DNA of 64,000 nucleotides from Candidatus Omnitrophota bacterium (GCA_022710715.1 JAKLGJ010000004.1:320166-384165); one strand, 5' to 3'; positions 39,377 to 46,998 are shown, numbered from the stretch's first letter. The notes: a model not told the origin generated them from the sequence alone. Program-made: numbers and translations.

Positions 39377-39757
39377 ATGAGCGGAGGGAAAATACTCAAG
39401 AGAAGAATTCAGGAGTATTTTTTCAAAGAAGAACGTATTATATTCCATGTTTTTCGCGGTATTTTTCGAAGCTTGATCCTTATCCTCAGTTTTTTGATGA
39501 TAGGGATATTCCTTTTCATGAAAACAGAAAAACTTGGTTTCCATGATTCTTTATACGAGACCGCGATGATCATGACGGGCATGGGGCCAGCTATCGAATT
39601 GCAAACAAATAGCGGAAAAATCTTTGCGTCTATTTTTGCTATGGTATCGGTAGGGGTGGTTATTTCTTCAATCACTTTTGTCTTCGGCCCTATTTATAGA
39701 CGATGGCATAAGAAAATGCATATTGAAATCCAGCAAAAGACAGGCGGTAAAGAATAA
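39377..39757 (+). CDS. two-TM ion-channel-like protein (pore-loop 'TGMGP')
   Basis: TM1 - pore helix 'YETAMIMTGMGP' - TM2 architecture. No K-selective TVGYG filter. Confidence 0.4.
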   Translation: MSGGKILKRRIQEYFFKEERIIFHVFRGIFRSLILILSFLMIGIFLFMKTEKLGFHDSLYETAMIMTGMGPAIELQTNSGKIFASIFAMVSVGVVISSITFVFGPIYRRWHKKMHIEIQQKTGGKE

Positions 39758-39766
39758 TCGAGGTTT

Positions 39767-40441
39767 ATGCAAATGCGCATACTATTAGTAGAGGATGAAA
39801 TAAGAATGGCCAGTTTTATTGTGCGCGGCCTGAGAGAAGAGGATTACGTGGTTGACGTGGCCAATGACGGAGAAAAGGCTTTATTCCAGGCCGAAATTAA
39901 TCCGTATGATCTTATAATCCTTGATATTATGCTGCCGGTTAAAGACGGCATTACTGTCTGTCGGGAACTCCGGAGCAAGAAGATAAACGTTCCTATCTTG
40001 ATGCTTACATCCAAAGACAGGGTGCGAGATAAGGTTTTAGGCTTGAATTCAGGCGCCGATGATTATCTGGCTAAACCATTTGCTTTTGAGGAGCTGATAG
40101 CCAGAATTAGCGCCTTATTACGGCGGGATAAAACAGATAAAACCGGTATTATTAAAGTCGCAGACTTAGAGCTGGATCAGCTCAGGCATGCAGTTACGCG
40201 GGCCGGGAATGAAATCCAGCTAACCAGCAAAGAGTTTGCCCTTTTGGAATACCTTATGCTTAATGCCACTCACGTCGTTACCAGGACAATGATTTCAGAA
40301 CACGTATGGCATGAAGATTTCGACAGTTTGACGAACGTCATTGATGTTTATATGAATTTCTTGCGCAATAAGATCGATAAAGGGCACAAAAAACGGCTTA
40401 TCCATACCATCCACGGCAAAGGGTATGTTTTAAAGGAATAA
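39767..40441 (+). CDS. OmpR-family response regulator (CusR/CopR-like)
   Basis: Receiver ('LLVEDE', 'LIILDIMLP') plus winged-helix trans_reg_C. Close paralog of 52483..53151. Confidence 0.85.
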
Positions 40442-40443
40442 CT

Positions 40444-41472
40444 ATGCTCGCCCAAACAATCAAATCAAAGGTTTGCATACTATACGCCTCTCTATTAGGC
40501 GTCGTGTTGTCTCTCTATGTCGGTCTGCTGCTTTTTATGCCCGCGGATTTATTGCAGAGGAATAAGCTGTTTTATATATTGATCCCTATCCCCCTGACGT
40601 TATTATTCGGTTATTTTATCGGGCATGTGATTATAACAAGAATTCTAAAGCCGATTAAAAAGATGACCGACACAGTAAAAAATATTACTCATGAAGATTT
40701 GAGTCTAAGAGTTCAGGCAGAAAACGTGGATGAGGAGTTGAGACGTTTGATCGAAGCTTTTAACGATATGGTTTCGCGGCTGGGGGAGTCATTCGAGTAT
40801 ATTACAGACTCAAGTTCGTATATCGCCCATGAGCTTAAAACCCCGATAGCCATCATCAGGGGGGAGTCGGAATTCGCATTAAAAAAAGAACGGGAGAAGG
40901 AAGAATACCAGAGAGTCATCAGCGTGAGTTTGGAAGAAACCAAGAGAATGCTTAAAATTATCGAGGATTTATTGTTTTTGACCAAAATGAATTACCAACC
41001 CGATGTTTTGAAATTCGAGCAGATTGATCTGACGCAGTTTATCCGTATAATTTACGAACAGGCAAAGATGCTGGCATCCAAAAAGAACATAACGGTCAAC
41101 ATAAATATCCCCGAAGAACCCGGTATGGTTAATGCGGATGATCTGCACCTGCGGCGCTTATTCTTTAACTTAATAGATAATGCAATAAAATTTACCCCCG
41201 CAAGCGGCAGTATAACGATAAATTTACGATATGAAGATCAAAAGGGAGCAGTTTCTATTATTGATTCGGGAATCGGGATTGAGGAAGAGAACATGCCGAA
41301 GCTTTTTGATAAGTTTTTCCGCATCGACGGAACGATTAAAGACACTTCTCCCAGCAGTGGATTAGGTTTAAGCATCGCCCAATCGATAGCCCAGTTGCAT
41401 AAGGGCAATATTTCGGTAACGAGCCGCGTTGGGCAAGGAACAAACTTTACCGTATCCCTCCCCGTTTTATAA
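40444..41472 (+). CDS. sensor histidine kinase (CusS-like)
   Basis: Two TM helices, a HAMP-like region, H-box 'AHELKTPIAII', N-box 'NLIDNAIKFT', 'DSGIGI' and 'GLGLSIA'. Confidence 0.85.
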   Translation: MLAQTIKSKVCILYASLLGVVLSLYVGLLLFMPADLLQRNKLFYILIPIPLTLLFGYFIGHVIITRILKPIKKMTDTVKNITHEDLSLRVQAENVDEELRRLIEAFNDMVSRLGESFEYITDSSSYIAHELKTPIAIIRGESEFALKKEREKEEYQRVISVSLEETKRMLKIIEDLLFLTKMNYQPDVLKFEQIDLTQFIRIIYEQAKMLASKKNITVNINIPEEPGMVNADDLHLRRLFFNLIDNAIKFTPASGSITINLRYEDQKGAVSIIDSGIGIEEENMPKLFDKFFRIDGTIKDTSPSSGLGLSIAQSIAQLHKGNISVTSRVGQGTNFTVSLPVL

Positions 41473-41662
41473 TCAACACATCTCCGCTCAGATTCTTTCC
41501 AGCTATCCAATCATTAAAAATTTTAATTCCTTTTTAACACTTCTTTAATCGCGAGTATGTTATATTGTCTGCCGATGAGGGAAAAAAATTACGGGTGGCT
41601 GCGGAGATCTGTTAAGCAGTGGAAGTTCACTCTGCAGCCGCCCGCAGAATTAAGGAGCGACA

Positions 41663-42391
41663 ATGACAAGAATACTTATTATTGAAGACGAAGAGAAGGT
41701 GAGAAGAATGTATAGCACGATGTTTAAGAACGAAGGGTTTGACGTCATTGAAGCGCCCGATGCGATTCAGGCGTCCTGTATACTCAACAAAGAGTACATA
41801 GATATGATCCTGCTTGATATAAAAATGCCGCAAGTTTATGGCAGCGTGTTTTACGATATTATGAAAATTTCTCACAAAAAGGTTAAAGTCATTGTGGCGA
41901 GCGTTTATTCCATCGAAGAGCAGAAAAAAATGATTCAGGGCGCCGATGATTATTATGATAAAGCGCATGGCCTTGATTTATTGCTGGAAAAAGTCAAGAA
42001 GGTGGAGCGGGGCATAAAACAACAGACGAGCATACTGGTTATTGATGATGAGCCCCGGATCAGGAAGATTTACCGCCATTATTTGCAAGAAAACGGATAT
42101 CGCATCATTGAGGCTCATGATGGCAACGACGGTTTAGATATATTAAGGAAGAGCAATGAAATCGCTTTGGTAATTCTTGATCTTGCCATGCCTCAAAAAA
42201 GCGGGTTCGAGATTCACGAACAGATGAAAAAAGAATTCCCGGGCATAAAGATATTGATCGCCAGCGTTTTTAACCAAAATGACCAGAAATTCCTGCTTCC
42301 CAACGCGGATGATTATTACGATAAATCAGAAGATGCGTCCAGGATGATCCAGAAGATCGAAAAGCTGATACATACAGATTGTCCCGCATGA
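41663..42391 (+). CDS. tandem double-receiver (REC-REC) response regulator without output domain
   Basis: Two receiver domains: 'ILIIEDEE...ILLDIKMP' and 'ILVIDDEP...VILDLAMP'. Confidence 0.75.
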   Translation: MTRILIIEDEEKVRRMYSTMFKNEGFDVIEAPDAIQASCILNKEYIDMILLDIKMPQVYGSVFYDIMKISHKKVKVIVASVYSIEEQKKMIQGADDYYDKAHGLDLLLEKVKKVERGIKQQTSILVIDDEPRIRKIYRHYLQENGYRIIEAHDGNDGLDILRKSNEIALVILDLAMPQKSGFEIHEQMKKEFPGIKILIASVFNQNDQKFLLPNADDYYDKSEDASRMIQKIEKLIHTDCPA

Positions 42392-42442
42392 CGAACAATT
42401 GCCCATGGAGGCAAAACGCCAGGGGGACAAAGGAGGTCAATT

Positions 42443-42637
42443 ATGTGCCCTTATTTCAATTATTCAAAATGCCAGAGTCTGTGTCTCTGCTATCCCGGGA
42501 GCCTGTTCTGTCCGAGTATCCAAAGACGGAAAGATTTTTGTTATAACAAATTCTGGGATTGCACGTATTTTAAGATAGAGACATCAGCAACCATTGAACC
42601 GGCTCAAGGCGAAGATTGTTTGCCTGTATTCGAATAA
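42443..42637 (+). CDS. small Cys-rich protein, MCP[YF]F family (copy A)
   Basis: 64 aa 'MCPYF...CQSLCLCYPGSLFCP...RKDFCYNKFWDCTYF'. AAAGGAGG RBS. Paralog of 43248..43439. Confidence 0.5.
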   Translation: MCPYFNYSKCQSLCLCYPGSLFCPSIQRRKDFCYNKFWDCTYFKIETSATIEPAQGEDCLPVFE

Positions 42638-42697
42638 TCCCGAGCGGTCTAATACATCTTTTTGCAGCCATATAATTATTTAAAGGAGTGATTTCCT

Positions 42698-43234
42698 GTG
42701 CAGTTATATATACCTCAAAACATTTTTGTTCAAATAACGATTCCTCTCTTGATCTTTCTTGCCCGGGCAGCGGATGTAAGCATGGCGGCAATGAGGATTA
42801 TTTTTGTTACTCGCGGCATAAGGGCGCTGGCCGCCATGATAGGTTTTTTTGAAATGTTGATTTGGCTTATAGGCATCACTCAAATAATGCAGAATTTAAA
42901 CAACCCTGTTAATTATTTAGCCTTTGCGGCCGGGTTCAGTATGGGAACTTTCGTCGGCATCACCATAGAGAGAAAAATTGCCATTGGCAATCTGGCGATC
43001 CAGCTCATTACGGGCAAGGATACATCCGGATTATTGACATATTTCCGCGCTAACGGATACGGCGCAACTGCTATTGATGCGCAGGGGACTTCCGGCCCGG
43101 TCAAGATTATTTATATCATCGTCAGGCGCAAGTTGGTGGACAAGGCGCTGGATATAATAACAAAATTTGATCCGGATGCTTTCTATATTATGGGAGACGT
43201 TCAGGTGGCAGCTCGTCTTGGCCCGGCAATCTGA
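42698..43234 (+). CDS. DUF2179 domain membrane protein (UPF0316/YitT C-terminal-like)
   Basis: Three or four TM helices followed by a PII-fold-like DUF2179 segment 'GATAIDAQGTSG..KIIYIIVRRKLVDKALDIITKFDPDAFYIMGDV'. Confidence 0.5.
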   Translation: MQLYIPQNIFVQITIPLLIFLARAADVSMAAMRIIFVTRGIRALAAMIGFFEMLIWLIGITQIMQNLNNPVNYLAFAAGFSMGTFVGITIERKIAIGNLAIQLITGKDTSGLLTYFRANGYGATAIDAQGTSGPVKIIYIIVRRKLVDKALDIITKFDPDAFYIMGDVQVAARLGPAI

Positions 43235-43247
43235 GAGGGAATGAACA

Positions 43248-43439
43248 ATGTGCCCTTTTTTTATTACAATACGACCAATCGGCCATTGCGGCTGTTATGG
43301 AGACGGTTCATTTCATCCGAACGCCAAACGTAAAAAGAAGTACTGCGCCGGGAAATTCAGGGACTGCTTATTCTATCAATGGGAAATGAAGCCGATTATT
43401 ATCCAATCGGCGCCGGGGTTGAAAAGTAATGAGATATGA
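43248..43439 (+). CDS. small Cys-rich protein, MCP[YF]F family (copy B)
   Basis: 63 aa 'MCPFF...HCGCYGDGSFHP...RKKKYCAGKFRDCLFY'. GAGGG RBS. Confidence 0.5.
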   Translation: MCPFFITIRPIGHCGCYGDGSFHPNAKRKKKYCAGKFRDCLFYQWEMKPIIIQSAPGLKSNEI

Positions 43440-44107
43440 ACATTTTAGTCTGGTTATCGCGCAATTATGGGATTGATATGAAAAACATTCCAATAGCGGA
43501 TATTGAGAGAGAGCTTGAGAAATTTACCTGTGATTTGCTGAGAATATGCCGTTTAACGCAGGAGGCGATCAACAAAACATCCTGTGTCCTTCTGTGTTCT
43601 GACGTCTTCAAGATGCAGGAGATTATAGATCACAGCAAAAGAATAGGGGCTCTGTGTGTTGCTTTCGAGGAATATCTTGACGATATCTTGACATGGTATC
43701 GGCCCGAGGGCAGCGTTTTGAAACTCATCTCTTCAAGCATAAACGTTATTATTGAATTAAAGCAAATTGCGGACTTGACTGTGGGTATTGCGGAAAGCTT
43801 ATTAAATTTTAATGCAGATATCCCTGAGAGGTATAAGATCAATATCGCTCAATGCGCTAAAAATTATAAAAATATTGTCTGGGATTCCACCATCTCCTTT
43901 TTAAGACAGGACGCGGAGTTAGCGAAGAAGACTATCGTAGCAAGCCTGGAGCTGAAAAAGATATGCAGCCGCATGCAGGAAGGCGTCATAGAAGCGAATA
44001 AAACAGTTGAATCGGCGAAAAGAGACGAATCTATTGTATTGTTTATTATCCAGAGCGTAGGAGATATTTCCGATCATGCAGTCGCTATCGCCCGATCCGT
44101 TATCTGA
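43436..44107 (+). CDS. PhoU-domain protein
   Basis: Two repeated helical PhoU-like halves with Asp/Glu-rich motifs. Start could instead be the internal ATG at 43478. Confidence 0.45.
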   Translation: MNILVWLSRNYGIDMKNIPIADIERELEKFTCDLLRICRLTQEAINKTSCVLLCSDVFKMQEIIDHSKRIGALCVAFEEYLDDILTWYRPEGSVLKLISSSINVIIELKQIADLTVGIAESLLNFNADIPERYKINIAQCAKNYKNIVWDSTISFLRQDAELAKKTIVASLELKKICSRMQEGVIEANKTVESAKRDESIVLFIIQSVGDISDHAVAIARSVI

Positions 44108-44136
44108 ATATAAACCGAAGAAATCAAGGAGCAGAA

Positions 44137-44655
44137 ATGAAAGATAAAAAAATTTATATCACGCGATCGGATTTCTACCGTCTCCGTGAAACGATCAAAG
44201 CTATGAAGTCCAGCCGGGAGATTGACAGGAGGTCTCTTGATGAACTGGAACACAGCTTTAACTCGCGGAATGAATTGAGATTGCTTCAAGAAGTAAGGAG
44301 GATAAACAGCTCAAAAAACGACGCGGAATGGGCGCCGATTATAGAGCTTGAAGCCGAATTGGACAGGGCAATCATCGTTGATGCCGATAAAATCCCTTCC
44401 GGTGTTATTACGATGAACTCGAAGGTCTGTCTTAAGGATATGGACACGGGGAAGGACGAATTCTATCAACTGGTATATCCCGAAGACGCGGATATTGAGC
44501 AAAACAAAATCTCCGTTTTAGCTCCTATCGGCACGGCGATACTGGGATATAAGGTGGGAGATGTAATCGAATGGAAGGTCCCGGCAGGCTTACGGAGGCT
44601 TAAAATTAAGAAAATATTGTATCAACCTGAAACAGCCAGAGATTATTATCTCTAA
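44137..44655 (+). CDS. GreA/GreB-family regulator (Rnk-like)
   Basis: C-terminal FKBP-like Gre domain 'ISVLAPIGTAILGYKVGDVIEWKVPAG' and an N-terminal coiled-coil. Confidence 0.65.
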   Translation: MKDKKIYITRSDFYRLRETIKAMKSSREIDRRSLDELEHSFNSRNELRLLQEVRRINSSKNDAEWAPIIELEAELDRAIIVDADKIPSGVITMNSKVCLKDMDTGKDEFYQLVYPEDADIEQNKISVLAPIGTAILGYKVGDVIEWKVPAGLRRLKIKKILYQPETARDYYL

Positions 44656-44668
44656 CGAGAGGTCAAGG

Positions 44669-44962
44669 ATGTTCAAACTGATAATGGCTATACTTCCGAA
44701 AGGGAAAATTAAGGCAGTAATGCCGGTTCTTAAAGACGCCGGTATTTTTGGCGCTACCATGTTTCCCGGAAAAGGGATGTGTACGGCAGAGGGCCGACGC
44801 GCGCTCGGCTTGCGTATTAACTCATCGAGAGAAATCCTGATGCTGCTCACCCTGGATCGCAATAAAGATAAGCTCATCACATTGCTGGAACACCACGGCA
44901 CATTAAAAGATCCGGGCCAGGGTATTGTTTTTGTGATGGATATCAGTCAAGTTATCGGATAA
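44669..44962 (+). CDS. P-II family protein (short, divergent)
   Basis: 'LIMAILPKGKIKAVMPVLKDAGIFGATMFPGKGMCTAEG' and C-terminal 'GQGIVFVMDISQVIG' parallel the GlnB T-loop and C-terminal regions. Confidence 0.5.
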   Translation: MFKLIMAILPKGKIKAVMPVLKDAGIFGATMFPGKGMCTAEGRRALGLRINSSREILMLLTLDRNKDKLITLLEHHGTLKDPGQGIVFVMDISQVIG

Positions 44963-44977
44963 ACGTAAGGAGGAGCC

Positions 44978-45439
44978 ATGGCAATAAACGTGTTTGTGAG
45001 TTTTAACCAGACTGATCTGAAGCAATGCGAAGCCTTCAATGTCCTTAAAGATCAATCAAAGCATGCATTTGAGGCTTGCGATCATAGTTTAAAAGAAATA
45101 TCAACTGACGGGATCGAGCAATTGATACAGTGCCGGCTGAATGAGGGCCGTTCAAAAGCATTACGGGAAGAGATTATCAAGAAATTTGAGCAGTGTGCCA
45201 AATTAGTCGTTTTAATCGGAAACGAGACTTTTAAGAATGAATGGGTGGAGTGGGAGGTAAATAATTTTTATAAAATGAAAAACGCGCTTTTGCCGGGGAA
45301 AGCGTGGATGAGTATTCGCGGCATGTTCCTTGAGGGTTGCGAAAAAGCAACAGAGCCGAAGGCCCTGGAATGCAGATCGACAAATGGCCTGGTATGGGAC
45401 CCCGAGGCTTTAGAGAAATGGATAGAAGCAGGATCCTGA
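44978..45439 (+). CDS. TIR-like domain protein (DUF1863 / ThsB-like)
   Basis: 'AINVFVSFNQTD' (compare VFISFxxxD) and 'CAKLVVLIGNETFKNEWVEWEV' (compare CDGVIVLLSKNTWKSxWVxWEI) match the MTH538/ThsB TIR-like pattern. 153 aa. Confidence 0.5.
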   Translation: MAINVFVSFNQTDLKQCEAFNVLKDQSKHAFEACDHSLKEISTDGIEQLIQCRLNEGRSKALREEIIKKFEQCAKLVVLIGNETFKNEWVEWEVNNFYKMKNALLPGKAWMSIRGMFLEGCEKATEPKALECRSTNGLVWDPEALEKWIEAGS

Positions 45440-45493
45440 GACGCTTTCCCCTGGACAAAATTTTTTGCAGGCAAGTAGACCCACCGTAAGCCA

Positions 45494-45528
45494 AAAGGCG
45501 GCTACTTTTTAAGTAGCCGCCTTTTCCG
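45494..45528. terminator. strong bidirectional rho-independent terminator
   Basis: AAAAGGCGGCTACTTtttAAGTAGCCGCCTTTT perfect hairpin with flanking A/T runs. Confidence 0.8.
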
Positions 45529-45686
45529 TTTCACATGAAATACCCTTGCGACTCATCCGCCCAGGTGTTATAATTATCTCATATTAAGGAGTTGGAGGAT
45601 GAGCAGGTCAGAATGGATTCGATAACCTGGAGGTGGCTTTTTGTCTCCGGGTTTTTTGTTTGACAATCACATTTAATAGGAGACGC

Positions 45687-46088
45687 ATGTTAAGATTTGA
45701 ATATGACCCGGATAAGATTTTCACTAGAATTATAAGCCTTGCATGTGAGATGGCAATCGATTGCATTCCTGATTACGACGATGACGATTTCGAATGTTTC
45801 TTCCCTCTTGCATCTAAATGTCTATCGAAGGACATGGTGAGGAAAACACTGAAAGAATTGAAGAAAAAGAATGAAGATTCCCATCTCTGGGTATTGAACG
45901 ATTATCATTATAGTCTGCTATATGACTTGTTGAGGGCGTTTTGCGGTGTCCAGAATGATATAGCTAAAGAATCTAATGAGCCTATCTTGAAAATCGACGG
46001 ATCAAAAATATATGAGATCGATTTTGATGAAATAGTCGAGCATTACTTCTATGATCTGGATTTCCTTTTGCCTAAAAAATATTCTTAA
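45687..46088 (+). CDS. hypothetical protein
   Basis: 133 aa, acidic ('DYDDDDFECFF'). TAGGAGA RBS. Confidence 0.35.
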   Translation: MLRFEYDPDKIFTRIISLACEMAIDCIPDYDDDDFECFFPLASKCLSKDMVRKTLKELKKKNEDSHLWVLNDYHYSLLYDLLRAFCGVQNDIAKESNEPILKIDGSKIYEIDFDEIVEHYFYDLDFLLPKKYS

Positions 46089-46090
46089 AT

Positions 46091-46273
46091 ATGACTGAAG
46101 AGCATAAAGAACAAATGGGTTTCGCTGAAGGGACCTTCGGAGTGATCATAGGATTGAAAGCGCATCCTGATGAGCTTAAGATGGAACTGTTCGATAGGAA
46201 AAAACACATTCCCGGCGCGCCCGACAATTCTTTATATGAAAAAGGTTCGGAAATATATCCCGGTCCAGTGTAA
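46091..46273 (+). CDS. small hypothetical protein
   Basis: 60-aa ORF immediately downstream of the preceding gene. Confidence 0.25.
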   Translation: MTEEHKEQMGFAEGTFGVIIGLKAHPDELKMELFDRKKHIPGAPDNSLYEKGSEIYPGPV

Positions 46274-46335
46274 TATGGCGGGGATCTGCCGCAAGGATCC
46301 TGCGATCCGCGTTGTTGTATTAAGGAGGATGCGAT

Positions 46336-46998
46336 ATGAGTTTCGCCGGAGATTGGTTGAAGAAAGAAAACGAGGCGTATGTCAGCTCGATTGCCGGGCT
46401 TCTGGCGGCGCTGGTTTTCACTGCGGATAAAAAGGCATATATCTGTCAGCAGCCGTTCGATTTCAACGTTTCGCTGGTGCTGTTTGTTTTCGTCGCGCTC
46501 CTGCGGTTGAAAGTCCATGTTTGTGAAACGCGGCTGGAGGGGTTTTCCCGGAGGCTGACTGTTGAGAATCTGGGAAAACTTGGGATGGCTCGGCTTACTG
46601 TCCGGGGGGATATATATCTATTTGCTCTCACGTTATTAAGCCTGGCAGTGATGCATGTTTATTTATTCCTGCCGGCGATGATGTTTTTTGTGATTACGGA
46701 TATCATCAGCTGTGCTGTCTCCTTGAAATATCTGGAGAAAATCGGCACGGATTGGGCAGAAGGCGTGTTCGATCCGTATCGATTATTCAGAGGTTGGATC
46801 GCTTTAGGTGTTATCAATGTGATTGGAATTATTCTGCTGGTGATAATGTCTTTATTTTTTGTCGCGGACATCAGGGTCGCTTTGGTCGAGTACTTTGCCT
46901 TTTGGCTCACGGGACTGGACATATTCGCGGACTTGATGATTGGCAGAGATTTTTATTTCAATTATTATTACCATGCCGAAGCAGAGCCCAAGCATTAA
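46336..46998 (+). CDS. hypothetical polytopic membrane protein
   Basis: 220 aa with about 5 hydrophobic helices. AGGAGG RBS. Confidence 0.45.
   Translation: MSFAGDWLKKENEAYVSSIAGLLAALVFTADKKAYICQQPFDFNVSLVLFVFVALLRLKVHVCETRLEGFSRRLTVENLGKLGMARLTVRGDIYLFALTLLSLAVMHVYLFLPAMMFFVITDIISCAVSLKYLEKIGTDWAEGVFDPYRLFRGWIALGVINVIGIILLVIMSLFFVADIRVALVEYFAFWLTGLDIFADLMIGRDFYFNYYYHAEAEPKH

What the first reader, a model, noticed from the sequence alone, without database searches (positions are those of the whole stretch)
42443..44962. Pair of paralogous 63-64-aa Cys-rich 'MCP[YF]F' peptides flanking a DUF2179 membrane gene, followed by PhoU-, Rnk- and PII-like regulators
ORFs 42443..42637 and 43248..43439 both have good RBSs and share the pattern MCP[YF]F-x-C.C(Y)..GS(L)F.P...[RK][RK]K.[FY]C..KF.DC.[YF][FY]..E. 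That is five or six Cys/His in conserved spacing. They bracket a small membrane protein whose soluble part resembles the PII-fold DUF2179 domain. Immediately downstream are a PhoU-domain protein, a Gre/Rnk-type factor and a short PII-like protein. I do not recognise the small-peptide family. Candidates include metal- or redox-sensing partners of the membrane protein, zinc-ribbon anti-regulators, or precursor peptides. The clustering of PII-fold and PhoU/Gre regulators hints at a signal-integration module.
Basis: seen in the sequence. Interest (0 to 1): 0.55.

Follow-up and report, generated by a model that had tools for sequence, protein, structure and literature searches.

The report
New four-cysteine small-protein family
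The two small ORFs are real, conserved genes for ~63-residue proteins with four invariant cysteines; they belong to an unnamed family found in several copies inside a signalling operon of uncultured Omnitrophota bacteria, where they probably bind a metal and dock onto neighbouring regulators, though their function is untested.

Summary
ORFs 42443..42637 (pep1) and 43248..43439 (pep2) are paralogues (35% identity, E=3e-11). They bracket a UPF0316 (DUF5698+DUF2179) membrane gene, followed by PhoU-domain, Rnk, PII-like and TIR-like genes.

Both are genuine coding genes. They have Shine-Dalgarno sites, dN/dS of about 0.1-0.25, and variation concentrated at third codon positions. I recovered 57 distinct homologues from more than 40 loci.

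An exhaustive HMM search of 1.84 billion representatives found only 26 clusters. Almost all are 57-81 aa, named only "hypothetical", and named hits are Candidatus Omnitrophota. No Pfam, NCBIfam, PADLOC or PDB match exists.

Family-wide, only C2, C14, C33 and C40 are invariant, with P24 nearly so. There are no CxxC knuckles, so this is not a zinc ribbon.

The conserved operon is OmpR-RR, HK, REC-REC, pepA, UPF0316, pepB, PhoU-like, Rnk. Spacing is tight: UPF0316 to pepB is about 13 nt, and pepB to PhoU is -4 to 11 nt. UPF0316 is not obligatory. Peptides persist where it is deleted, and a distant member sits as REC-pep-Rnk.

My best reading is inferred: paralogue-specific, metal-centred Cys4 adaptor proteins in a two-component-controlled module. 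RiPP and leader-peptide readings are rejected. This is a new family of moderate interest.

The parts
39767..40441 (+). OmpR-family response regulator (REC + Trans_reg_C), first gene of the conserved module
   Evidence: Pfam. Orthologues sit in the same position in L003, L007, L009, L094 and L098-L108.
40444..41472 (+). Histidine kinase (two N-terminal hydrophobic segments separated by about 10 residues, then HAMP-HisKA-HATPase_c); looks like an intramembrane-sensing type
   Evidence: Pfam; hydropathy windows; conserved synteny.
41510..41561 (+). Conserved AT-rich box with three 11-bp-spaced direct repeats TTTTAA[TC] (41521, 41532, 41543) overlapping a -35/-10-like pair (TTAACA 41534-41539, TATGTT 41556-41561). 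Putative binding site for the OmpR-type regulator and promoter of the peptide operon (inferred).
   Evidence: The intergenic alignment is conserved even in divergent loci L007, L009, L012 and L094. Sequence. Promoter scan. The pattern is unique in the window, with 0 expected by chance.
41592..41644 (+). 15-bp hairpin in the 5' leader of the REC-REC gene, with no T-run (not a terminator)
   Evidence: RNAalifold on 11 loci: 15 pairs, changes mostly one-sided and pair-keeping (G-C to G-U), one compensatory. MFE -33.6 kcal/mol, z = -2.98. No Rfam family.
41663..42391 (+). Double receiver-domain protein (REC-REC, 242 aa, no output domain); both acceptor-Asp motifs are visible in the sequence
   Evidence: Pfam Response_reg x2, 126 bits. 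It lies directly upstream of the first peptide in every locus of the clade, with a 2-52 nt gap.
42443..42637 (+). pep1, class A1 Cys4 small protein (64 aa, pI 5.2, acidic variable tail)
42698..43234 (+). UPF0316 membrane protein (DUF5698 TM region + DUF2179 PII-like soluble domain), GTG start, pI 9.7
43248..43439 (+). pep2, class B Cys4 small protein (63 aa, pI 9.3, basic). It starts 13 nt after the UPF0316 stop, and its stop overlaps the PhoU-like start.
43436..44107 (+). PhoU-domain protein (two PhoU repeats, pI 5.4, 7 Cys); below the cut-off for true PhoU
   Evidence: PF01895 55 bits; TIGR02135 64.4 bits against cut-off 130.
44137..44655 (+). Rnk-type Gre-family factor (GreA_GreB C-terminal domain) with a longer N-terminal part
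   Evidence: PF01272 91 bits; NF004396 123.5 bits, cut-off 109.
44669..44962 (+). Short PII-like protein (97 aa)
   Evidence: PF00543 30.6 bits, gathering score 25. Orthologues in L003, L007, L013, L102, L110 and L118.
44978..45439 (+). ThsB-like TIR-domain protein, 15 nt after the PII-like gene; last gene before the terminator-like site
   Evidence: PF08937 44.8 bits; PADLOC ThsB models at 1e-5 to 1e-6. Conserved at the operon end in L001, L097-L105, L109 and L118.
45624..45653 (+). Terminator-like hairpin with T-run; probable end of the operon

Best explanation
pep1 and pep2 are two paralogous members of an undescribed family of soluble proteins of about 60 aa. The conserved 45-residue core is held together by a metal centre (Zn or an Fe-S cluster) ligated by four invariant cysteines, C2, C14, C33 and C40. 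They are dedicated accessory subunits of a two-component-controlled operon of Omnitrophota: OmpR-RR, intramembrane-type HK, REC-REC, pepA, UPF0316, pepB, PhoU-like, Rnk, PII-like. Each paralogue class is made together with, and most likely binds, a different neighbour. The acidic A class follows the REC-REC protein and precedes the basic UPF0316 membrane/PII-like protein. The basic B class is translationally coupled to the acidic PhoU-domain protein, or to Rnk where PhoU is absent. In this way they would act as small adaptors or switches that pass the state of the phosphorelay, or a metal/redox state read by the Cys4 centre, to the membrane protein, the PhoU-like modulator and the RNA-polymerase-binding Rnk factor.

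Shown: the genes are coding and under purifying selection, the four-Cys signature is invariant, and gene order and coupling are conserved.

Inferred: metal binding, physical partners and direction of signalling.
For: Coding and selected: dN/dS is 0.09-0.15 against L001/L002, similar to the flanking REC-REC gene (0.095) and about twice that of UPF0316 (0.061). Pooled pN/pS is 0.25 for 22 A1 and 16 B orthologues. Variable columns by codon position are 26/26/44 and 22/24/41. All copies have SD-like sites.

Family signature: C2, C14, C33 and C40 are invariant, and P24 is invariant or at 90% or more, in alignments of 28, 31 and 58 sequences. There is no hydrophobic segment. The C-terminal tail is variable and predicted disordered (pLDDT below 50).

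Rarity and lack of annotation: 26 clusters at E<1e-3 among 1.84e9 representatives. Names are only 'hypothetical protein', from Candidatus Omnitrophota. No Pfam, NCBIfam, PADLOC or PDB hit.

Conserved architecture and coupling: the gaps are REC-REC to pepA 2-52 nt, UPF0316 to pepB 10-18 nt (mostly 13) and pepB to PhoU -4 to 11 nt, seen in more than 20 loci.

Class-to-neighbour match: canonical B copies lie before PhoU-like genes in the window, L001, L002, L003, L009, L097-L102, L104-L106, L109, L110 and L118. B' copies lie directly before Rnk where PhoU is absent (L094, L112-L115).

A distant member (P0014, L096) lies as REC-pep-GreA/Rnk-REC, with a 2-nt gap after the REC gene.

Charge complementarity: pep1 pI 5.2 against UPF0316 9.7; pep2 pI 9.3 against PhoU-like 5.4.

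A conserved promoter-like box with 11-bp direct repeats lies between the HK and REC-REC genes. This fits control by the OmpR-type regulator.
Against: No experiment or confident structure supports metal binding. The AlphaFold2 models are poor (pLDDT 56.5 and 62.2) and disagree on the N-terminal third, giving a helix in one and a beta-hairpin in the other. Foldseek against the PDB found nothing.

No partner contact was tested, because no multimer prediction was available.

The peptides are dispensable in some relatives. pepA is absent in L012 and pseudogenised in L011 (frameshift, C14W, C33Y). pepB is absent before PhoU in L014.

More distant members lie in other contexts: next to PG_binding and Gly-zipper proteins (L091, L117), alone (L092), or as a tandem pair after a different TCS (L005). 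The partners therefore cannot all be the same.

The loci are phylogenetically close, and the metagenome scan was seeded with A1 peptides, so the counts are not independent. Charge complementarity is weak evidence, since membrane proteins are commonly basic.
Confidence: 0.4

Rival explanations
1. The peptides are small metal-stabilised nucleic-acid- or RNA-polymerase-binding factors. They would work with the Rnk/Gre-type secondary-channel protein, supplying the kind of Cys4 module that DksA/TraR carry in cis. The receiver proteins would control them.
For: Rnk is the most widely retained downstream neighbour: the window, L001-L004, L007-L010, L013, L094, L096-L106 and L109-L116. B' copies and the L116 chimera lie directly before Rnk. 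Class B is strongly basic (pI 9.5), with a KRKKK stretch.
Against: There is no DksA/TraR CxxC-x17-CxxC motif and no Pfam hit. Class A is acidic. In the window and most loci a PhoU-like gene, not Rnk, is the coupled neighbour of B. No fusion of the domain to any DNA- or RNAP-binding protein was found (all specific hits are 57-81 aa).
Confidence: 0.15
2. The peptides are metal buffers or metallochaperones serving the ion-transport genes that travel with the operon (MgtE, CPA2 antiporter with TrkA_C, CDF). They would not be signalling adaptors.
For: In relatives the operon neighbours include Na_H_Exchanger/TrkA_C upstream, MgtE directly after Rnk, and Cation_efflux in L007. The proteins have invariant thiols.
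Against: The transporters handle Mg2+, K+ and Na+, which thiols do not bind. The window itself lacks these transporter genes next to the operon. Four Cys in about 60 aa, with conserved aromatic and Pro positions, looks like one structural or sensing site rather than a metallothionein. Several specialised paralogues per operon argue for partner specificity.
Confidence: 0.1
3. The ORFs encode RiPP precursor peptides: a conserved N-terminal leader and a variable C-terminal core.
For: They are small, Cys-containing and multi-copy, with a conserved N-terminus and a variable C-terminal tail.
Against: No radical-SAM, YcaO, lanthipeptide synthetase, peptidase or ABC exporter gene lies in the window neighbourhood or is conserved in any of the 40+ loci. 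The conserved Cys lie in the 'leader' part. The conserved neighbours are all regulators.
Confidence: 0.03
4. The ORFs are not functional proteins. They would be regulatory leader ORFs, or chance ORFs in intergenic spacers.
For: Gene callers often missed them or gave wrong starts: L002 pep2, L003 pepB and L009 pepA were uncalled, and P0004/P0006 have extended starts.
Against: Selection at the amino-acid level and the codon-position pattern argue against it. So do the invariant Cys/Pro positions at about 25% identity, strong SD sites and the absence of any Rfam element.
Confidence: 0.02

Closest known systems
Small-protein connectors and modulators of two-component systems (PmrD, MgrB, SafA, Sda, Ira anti-adaptors). 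Functional class, recalled from general knowledge.
   Same: They are short proteins encoded within or next to a two-component regulon that act by binding a kinase, a receiver domain or an adaptor. Here the peptide genes lie 2-52 nt after a receiver-only gene, downstream of an RR-HK pair and a putative RR box.
   Different: There is no sequence relation (no Pfam or NCBIfam hit). The known examples are not Cys4 proteins, and several are membrane peptides. Binding to the kinase or receiver is untested here.
DksA/TraR C4 zinc-finger proteins (RNA polymerase secondary-channel factors)
   Same: Both have a small Cys4 module functionally linked to a secondary-channel factor. An Rnk/Gre-type gene is the most persistent downstream neighbour.
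   Different: DksA/TraR has two CxxC knuckles separated by about 17 residues. This family has single Cys spaced 11/18/6 with no CxxC, and does not hit PF01258.
Wbl (WhiB-like) and other small Fe-S sensor proteins
   Same: Both are small soluble proteins with four invariant, widely spaced Cys surrounded by aromatic residues that act by binding a regulatory partner.
   Different: The Wbl motif C-Xn-C-X2-C-X5-C is absent, and there is no Pfam hit. Wbl proteins are actinobacterial. Fe-S binding is untested here.
CooT (about 66-aa Ni-binding protein with essential Cys2). Recalled from memory; a lead only.
   Same: Similar size, and a strictly conserved Cys directly after the initiator Met.
   Different: CooT uses one Cys and has a beta-barrel fold in a CODH operon. 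Here there are four Cys, and neither AF2 model predicts a beta-barrel (helices, plus a short N-terminal hairpin in the pep2 model, both low confidence). There is no Pfam match.
ComFB-type small Cys4 Zn proteins (PMC4381287; seen only as a title and abstract in the listing)
   Same: A small cytoplasmic protein with a four-Cys metal site and a regulatory role.
   Different: No sequence match. It is about 98 aa, with a different Cys pattern and context.
Pfam DUF6472 (PF20076)
   Same: It is the only library family that any member touches: P0025 residues 44-63 against profile positions 28-46.
   Different: The score is 17.2 bits, below the gathering score of 27, and only 1 of 28 members hits. It is not a member.

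Membership tests
Zinc ribbon / CxxC-knuckle zinc fingers (including DksA/TraR C4) | Two CxxC (or CPxCG) knuckles that supply the four ligands | tested here: not met
   The invariant Cys are at 2, 14, 33 and 40 (spacing 11/18/6), with no conserved CxxC. No zinc-finger Pfam hit even at E<=10.
RiPP precursor peptides | Conserved co-location with a maturation enzyme, leader peptidase or exporter | tested here: not met
   The neighbours in the window and in 40+ loci are RR, HK, REC, UPF0316, PhoU-like, Rnk, PII-like, MgtE and TIR-like genes only.
Known small Fe-S families (Wbl, CDGSH, HiPIP, ferredoxin) | The family-specific Cys motif, and a profile match above threshold | tested here: not met
   No Pfam or NCBIfam match. 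The C-x-C...G-D-G-S-x-H resemblance of pep2 to CDGSH is not conserved: C16 and H23 vary across classes.
Metal-binding Cys4 protein (generic) | Stoichiometric metal bound by the four Cys | not testable with these tools
   Only the invariance of the four Cys is shown. The AF2 models are of low confidence.
Pfam DUF6472 (PF20076) | Score at or above the gathering threshold (27 bits) | tested here: not met
   Best score 17.2 bits, for 1 of 28 members.
UPF0316 (NF003191; DUF5698 + DUF2179), for the gene between the peptides | Profile score above the curated cut-off, with a TM region plus a DUF2179 domain | tested here: met
   NF003191 207.1 bits against 179; PF18955 76.5 bits; PF10035 44.8 bits. N-terminal hydrophobic segments are present.
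PhoU (TIGR02135 equivalog), for 43436..44107 | Two PhoU repeats and an equivalog score of at least 130.25 | tested here: not met
   The PhoU domain is present twice (PF01895 55 bits, above 23.5), but TIGR02135 gives only 64.4 bits. It is a PhoU-domain protein, not PhoU proper.
Rnk (NF004396), for 44137..44655 | Gre-type C-terminal domain plus a short coiled coil, with a score above cut-off | tested here: met
   NF004396 123.5 bits against 109; PF01272 91 bits. The match covers residues 59-170 only, so there is an extra N-terminal part.
PII (PF00543), for 44669..44962 | Pfam gathering score; GlnB/GlnK equivalog score | tested here: inconclusive
   PF00543 30.6 bits, above 25. The NCBIfam PII regulator gives 13.2 bits against 181. 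It is PII-like in fold family, not GlnB/K.
Thoeris defence system, for 44978..45439 | ThsB TIR protein together with a ThsA effector | tested here: not met
   The TIR-like domain hits (PF08937 44.8 bits; PADLOC ThsB about 1e-6). No other PADLOC hit appears among the ten ORFs from pep1 (42443) to the GNAT-like ORF (47881).
Two-component connector proteins (functional class) | Direct binding to a kinase or receiver domain that alters phosphotransfer | not testable with these tools
   Only gene adjacency and coupling to REC genes is shown.

The most novel reading that the evidence does not exclude
The family is a new class of Fe-S- or Zn-centred micro-proteins that diversified into partner-specific paralogues within one operon. 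Together they would wire a phosphorelay (HK/RR/REC-REC) to three different effectors: a membrane-anchored PII-like protein (UPF0316), a PhoU-type modulator and an RNA-polymerase secondary-channel factor (Rnk). This would give the first functional handle on UPF0316/DUF2179, and an example of redox- or metal-gated adaptor switching in the uncultured phylum Omnitrophota.
Probability: 0.2. Interest if true: 0.7.

Novelty: new variant of a known kind. Interest (0 to 1): 0.45.

Why it matters
Small proteins are systematically under-annotated. Here several copies were missed or mis-started by gene callers, and the family has no Pfam or NCBIfam model. The family is tightly embedded in a conserved regulatory operon that also contains three poorly understood components: UPF0316/DUF2179, a PhoU-domain paralogue and an Rnk-type factor. 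If the peptides are adaptors or metal/redox switches, they would give a testable entry point into what these widespread 'unknown' regulators do. They would also add a new type of small-protein modulator to two-component signalling. If they prove to be only structural subunits, the result is still a clean new family definition (signature C-P-[YF]-[FLY]-x8-C-x9-P-x8-C-x6-C-x-[YF]-[YF]) for annotating Omnitrophota genomes.

Tried and rejected
- **Word-indexed protein searches** with each peptide found only 2 hits each. The family became visible only with the exhaustive profile search.
- **The search for related loci with the 28-sequence alignment** failed for lack of a conserved 7-10 column stretch. 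An A1-only alignment worked.
- **The GTDB scan with the REC-REC alignment** returned mostly generic response regulators. Only L011-L014 were true orthologues.
- **AlphaFold2.** The first run, on a 28-sequence alignment for pep1, gave pLDDT 56.5. A second run, on a 31-sequence alignment for pep2, gave pLDDT 62.2 with a different N-terminal topology. Neither model is usable.
- **Rfam** found nothing in 41000..46500.
- **PADLOC** hit only the TIR-like gene.
- **Literature.** Only six papers mention DUF2179 (none DUF5698), each once or twice in passing (none was opened). The search for PF10035 was swamped by Plasmodium gene IDs. The small-protein search gave no relevant paper.
- **A corrected misreading.** I first read L001 as holding only remnants of pep1. 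The HMM scan showed three tandem copies there, one with ATG changed to AGG, plus a UPF0316 C-terminal remnant.
- **u126 (39377..39757)** is not a remnant of the Na_H_Exchanger gene found at that position in relatives.
- **The CDGSH-like look of pep2** (C-G-C...GDGSFH) was rejected, because C16 and H23 are not conserved across classes.
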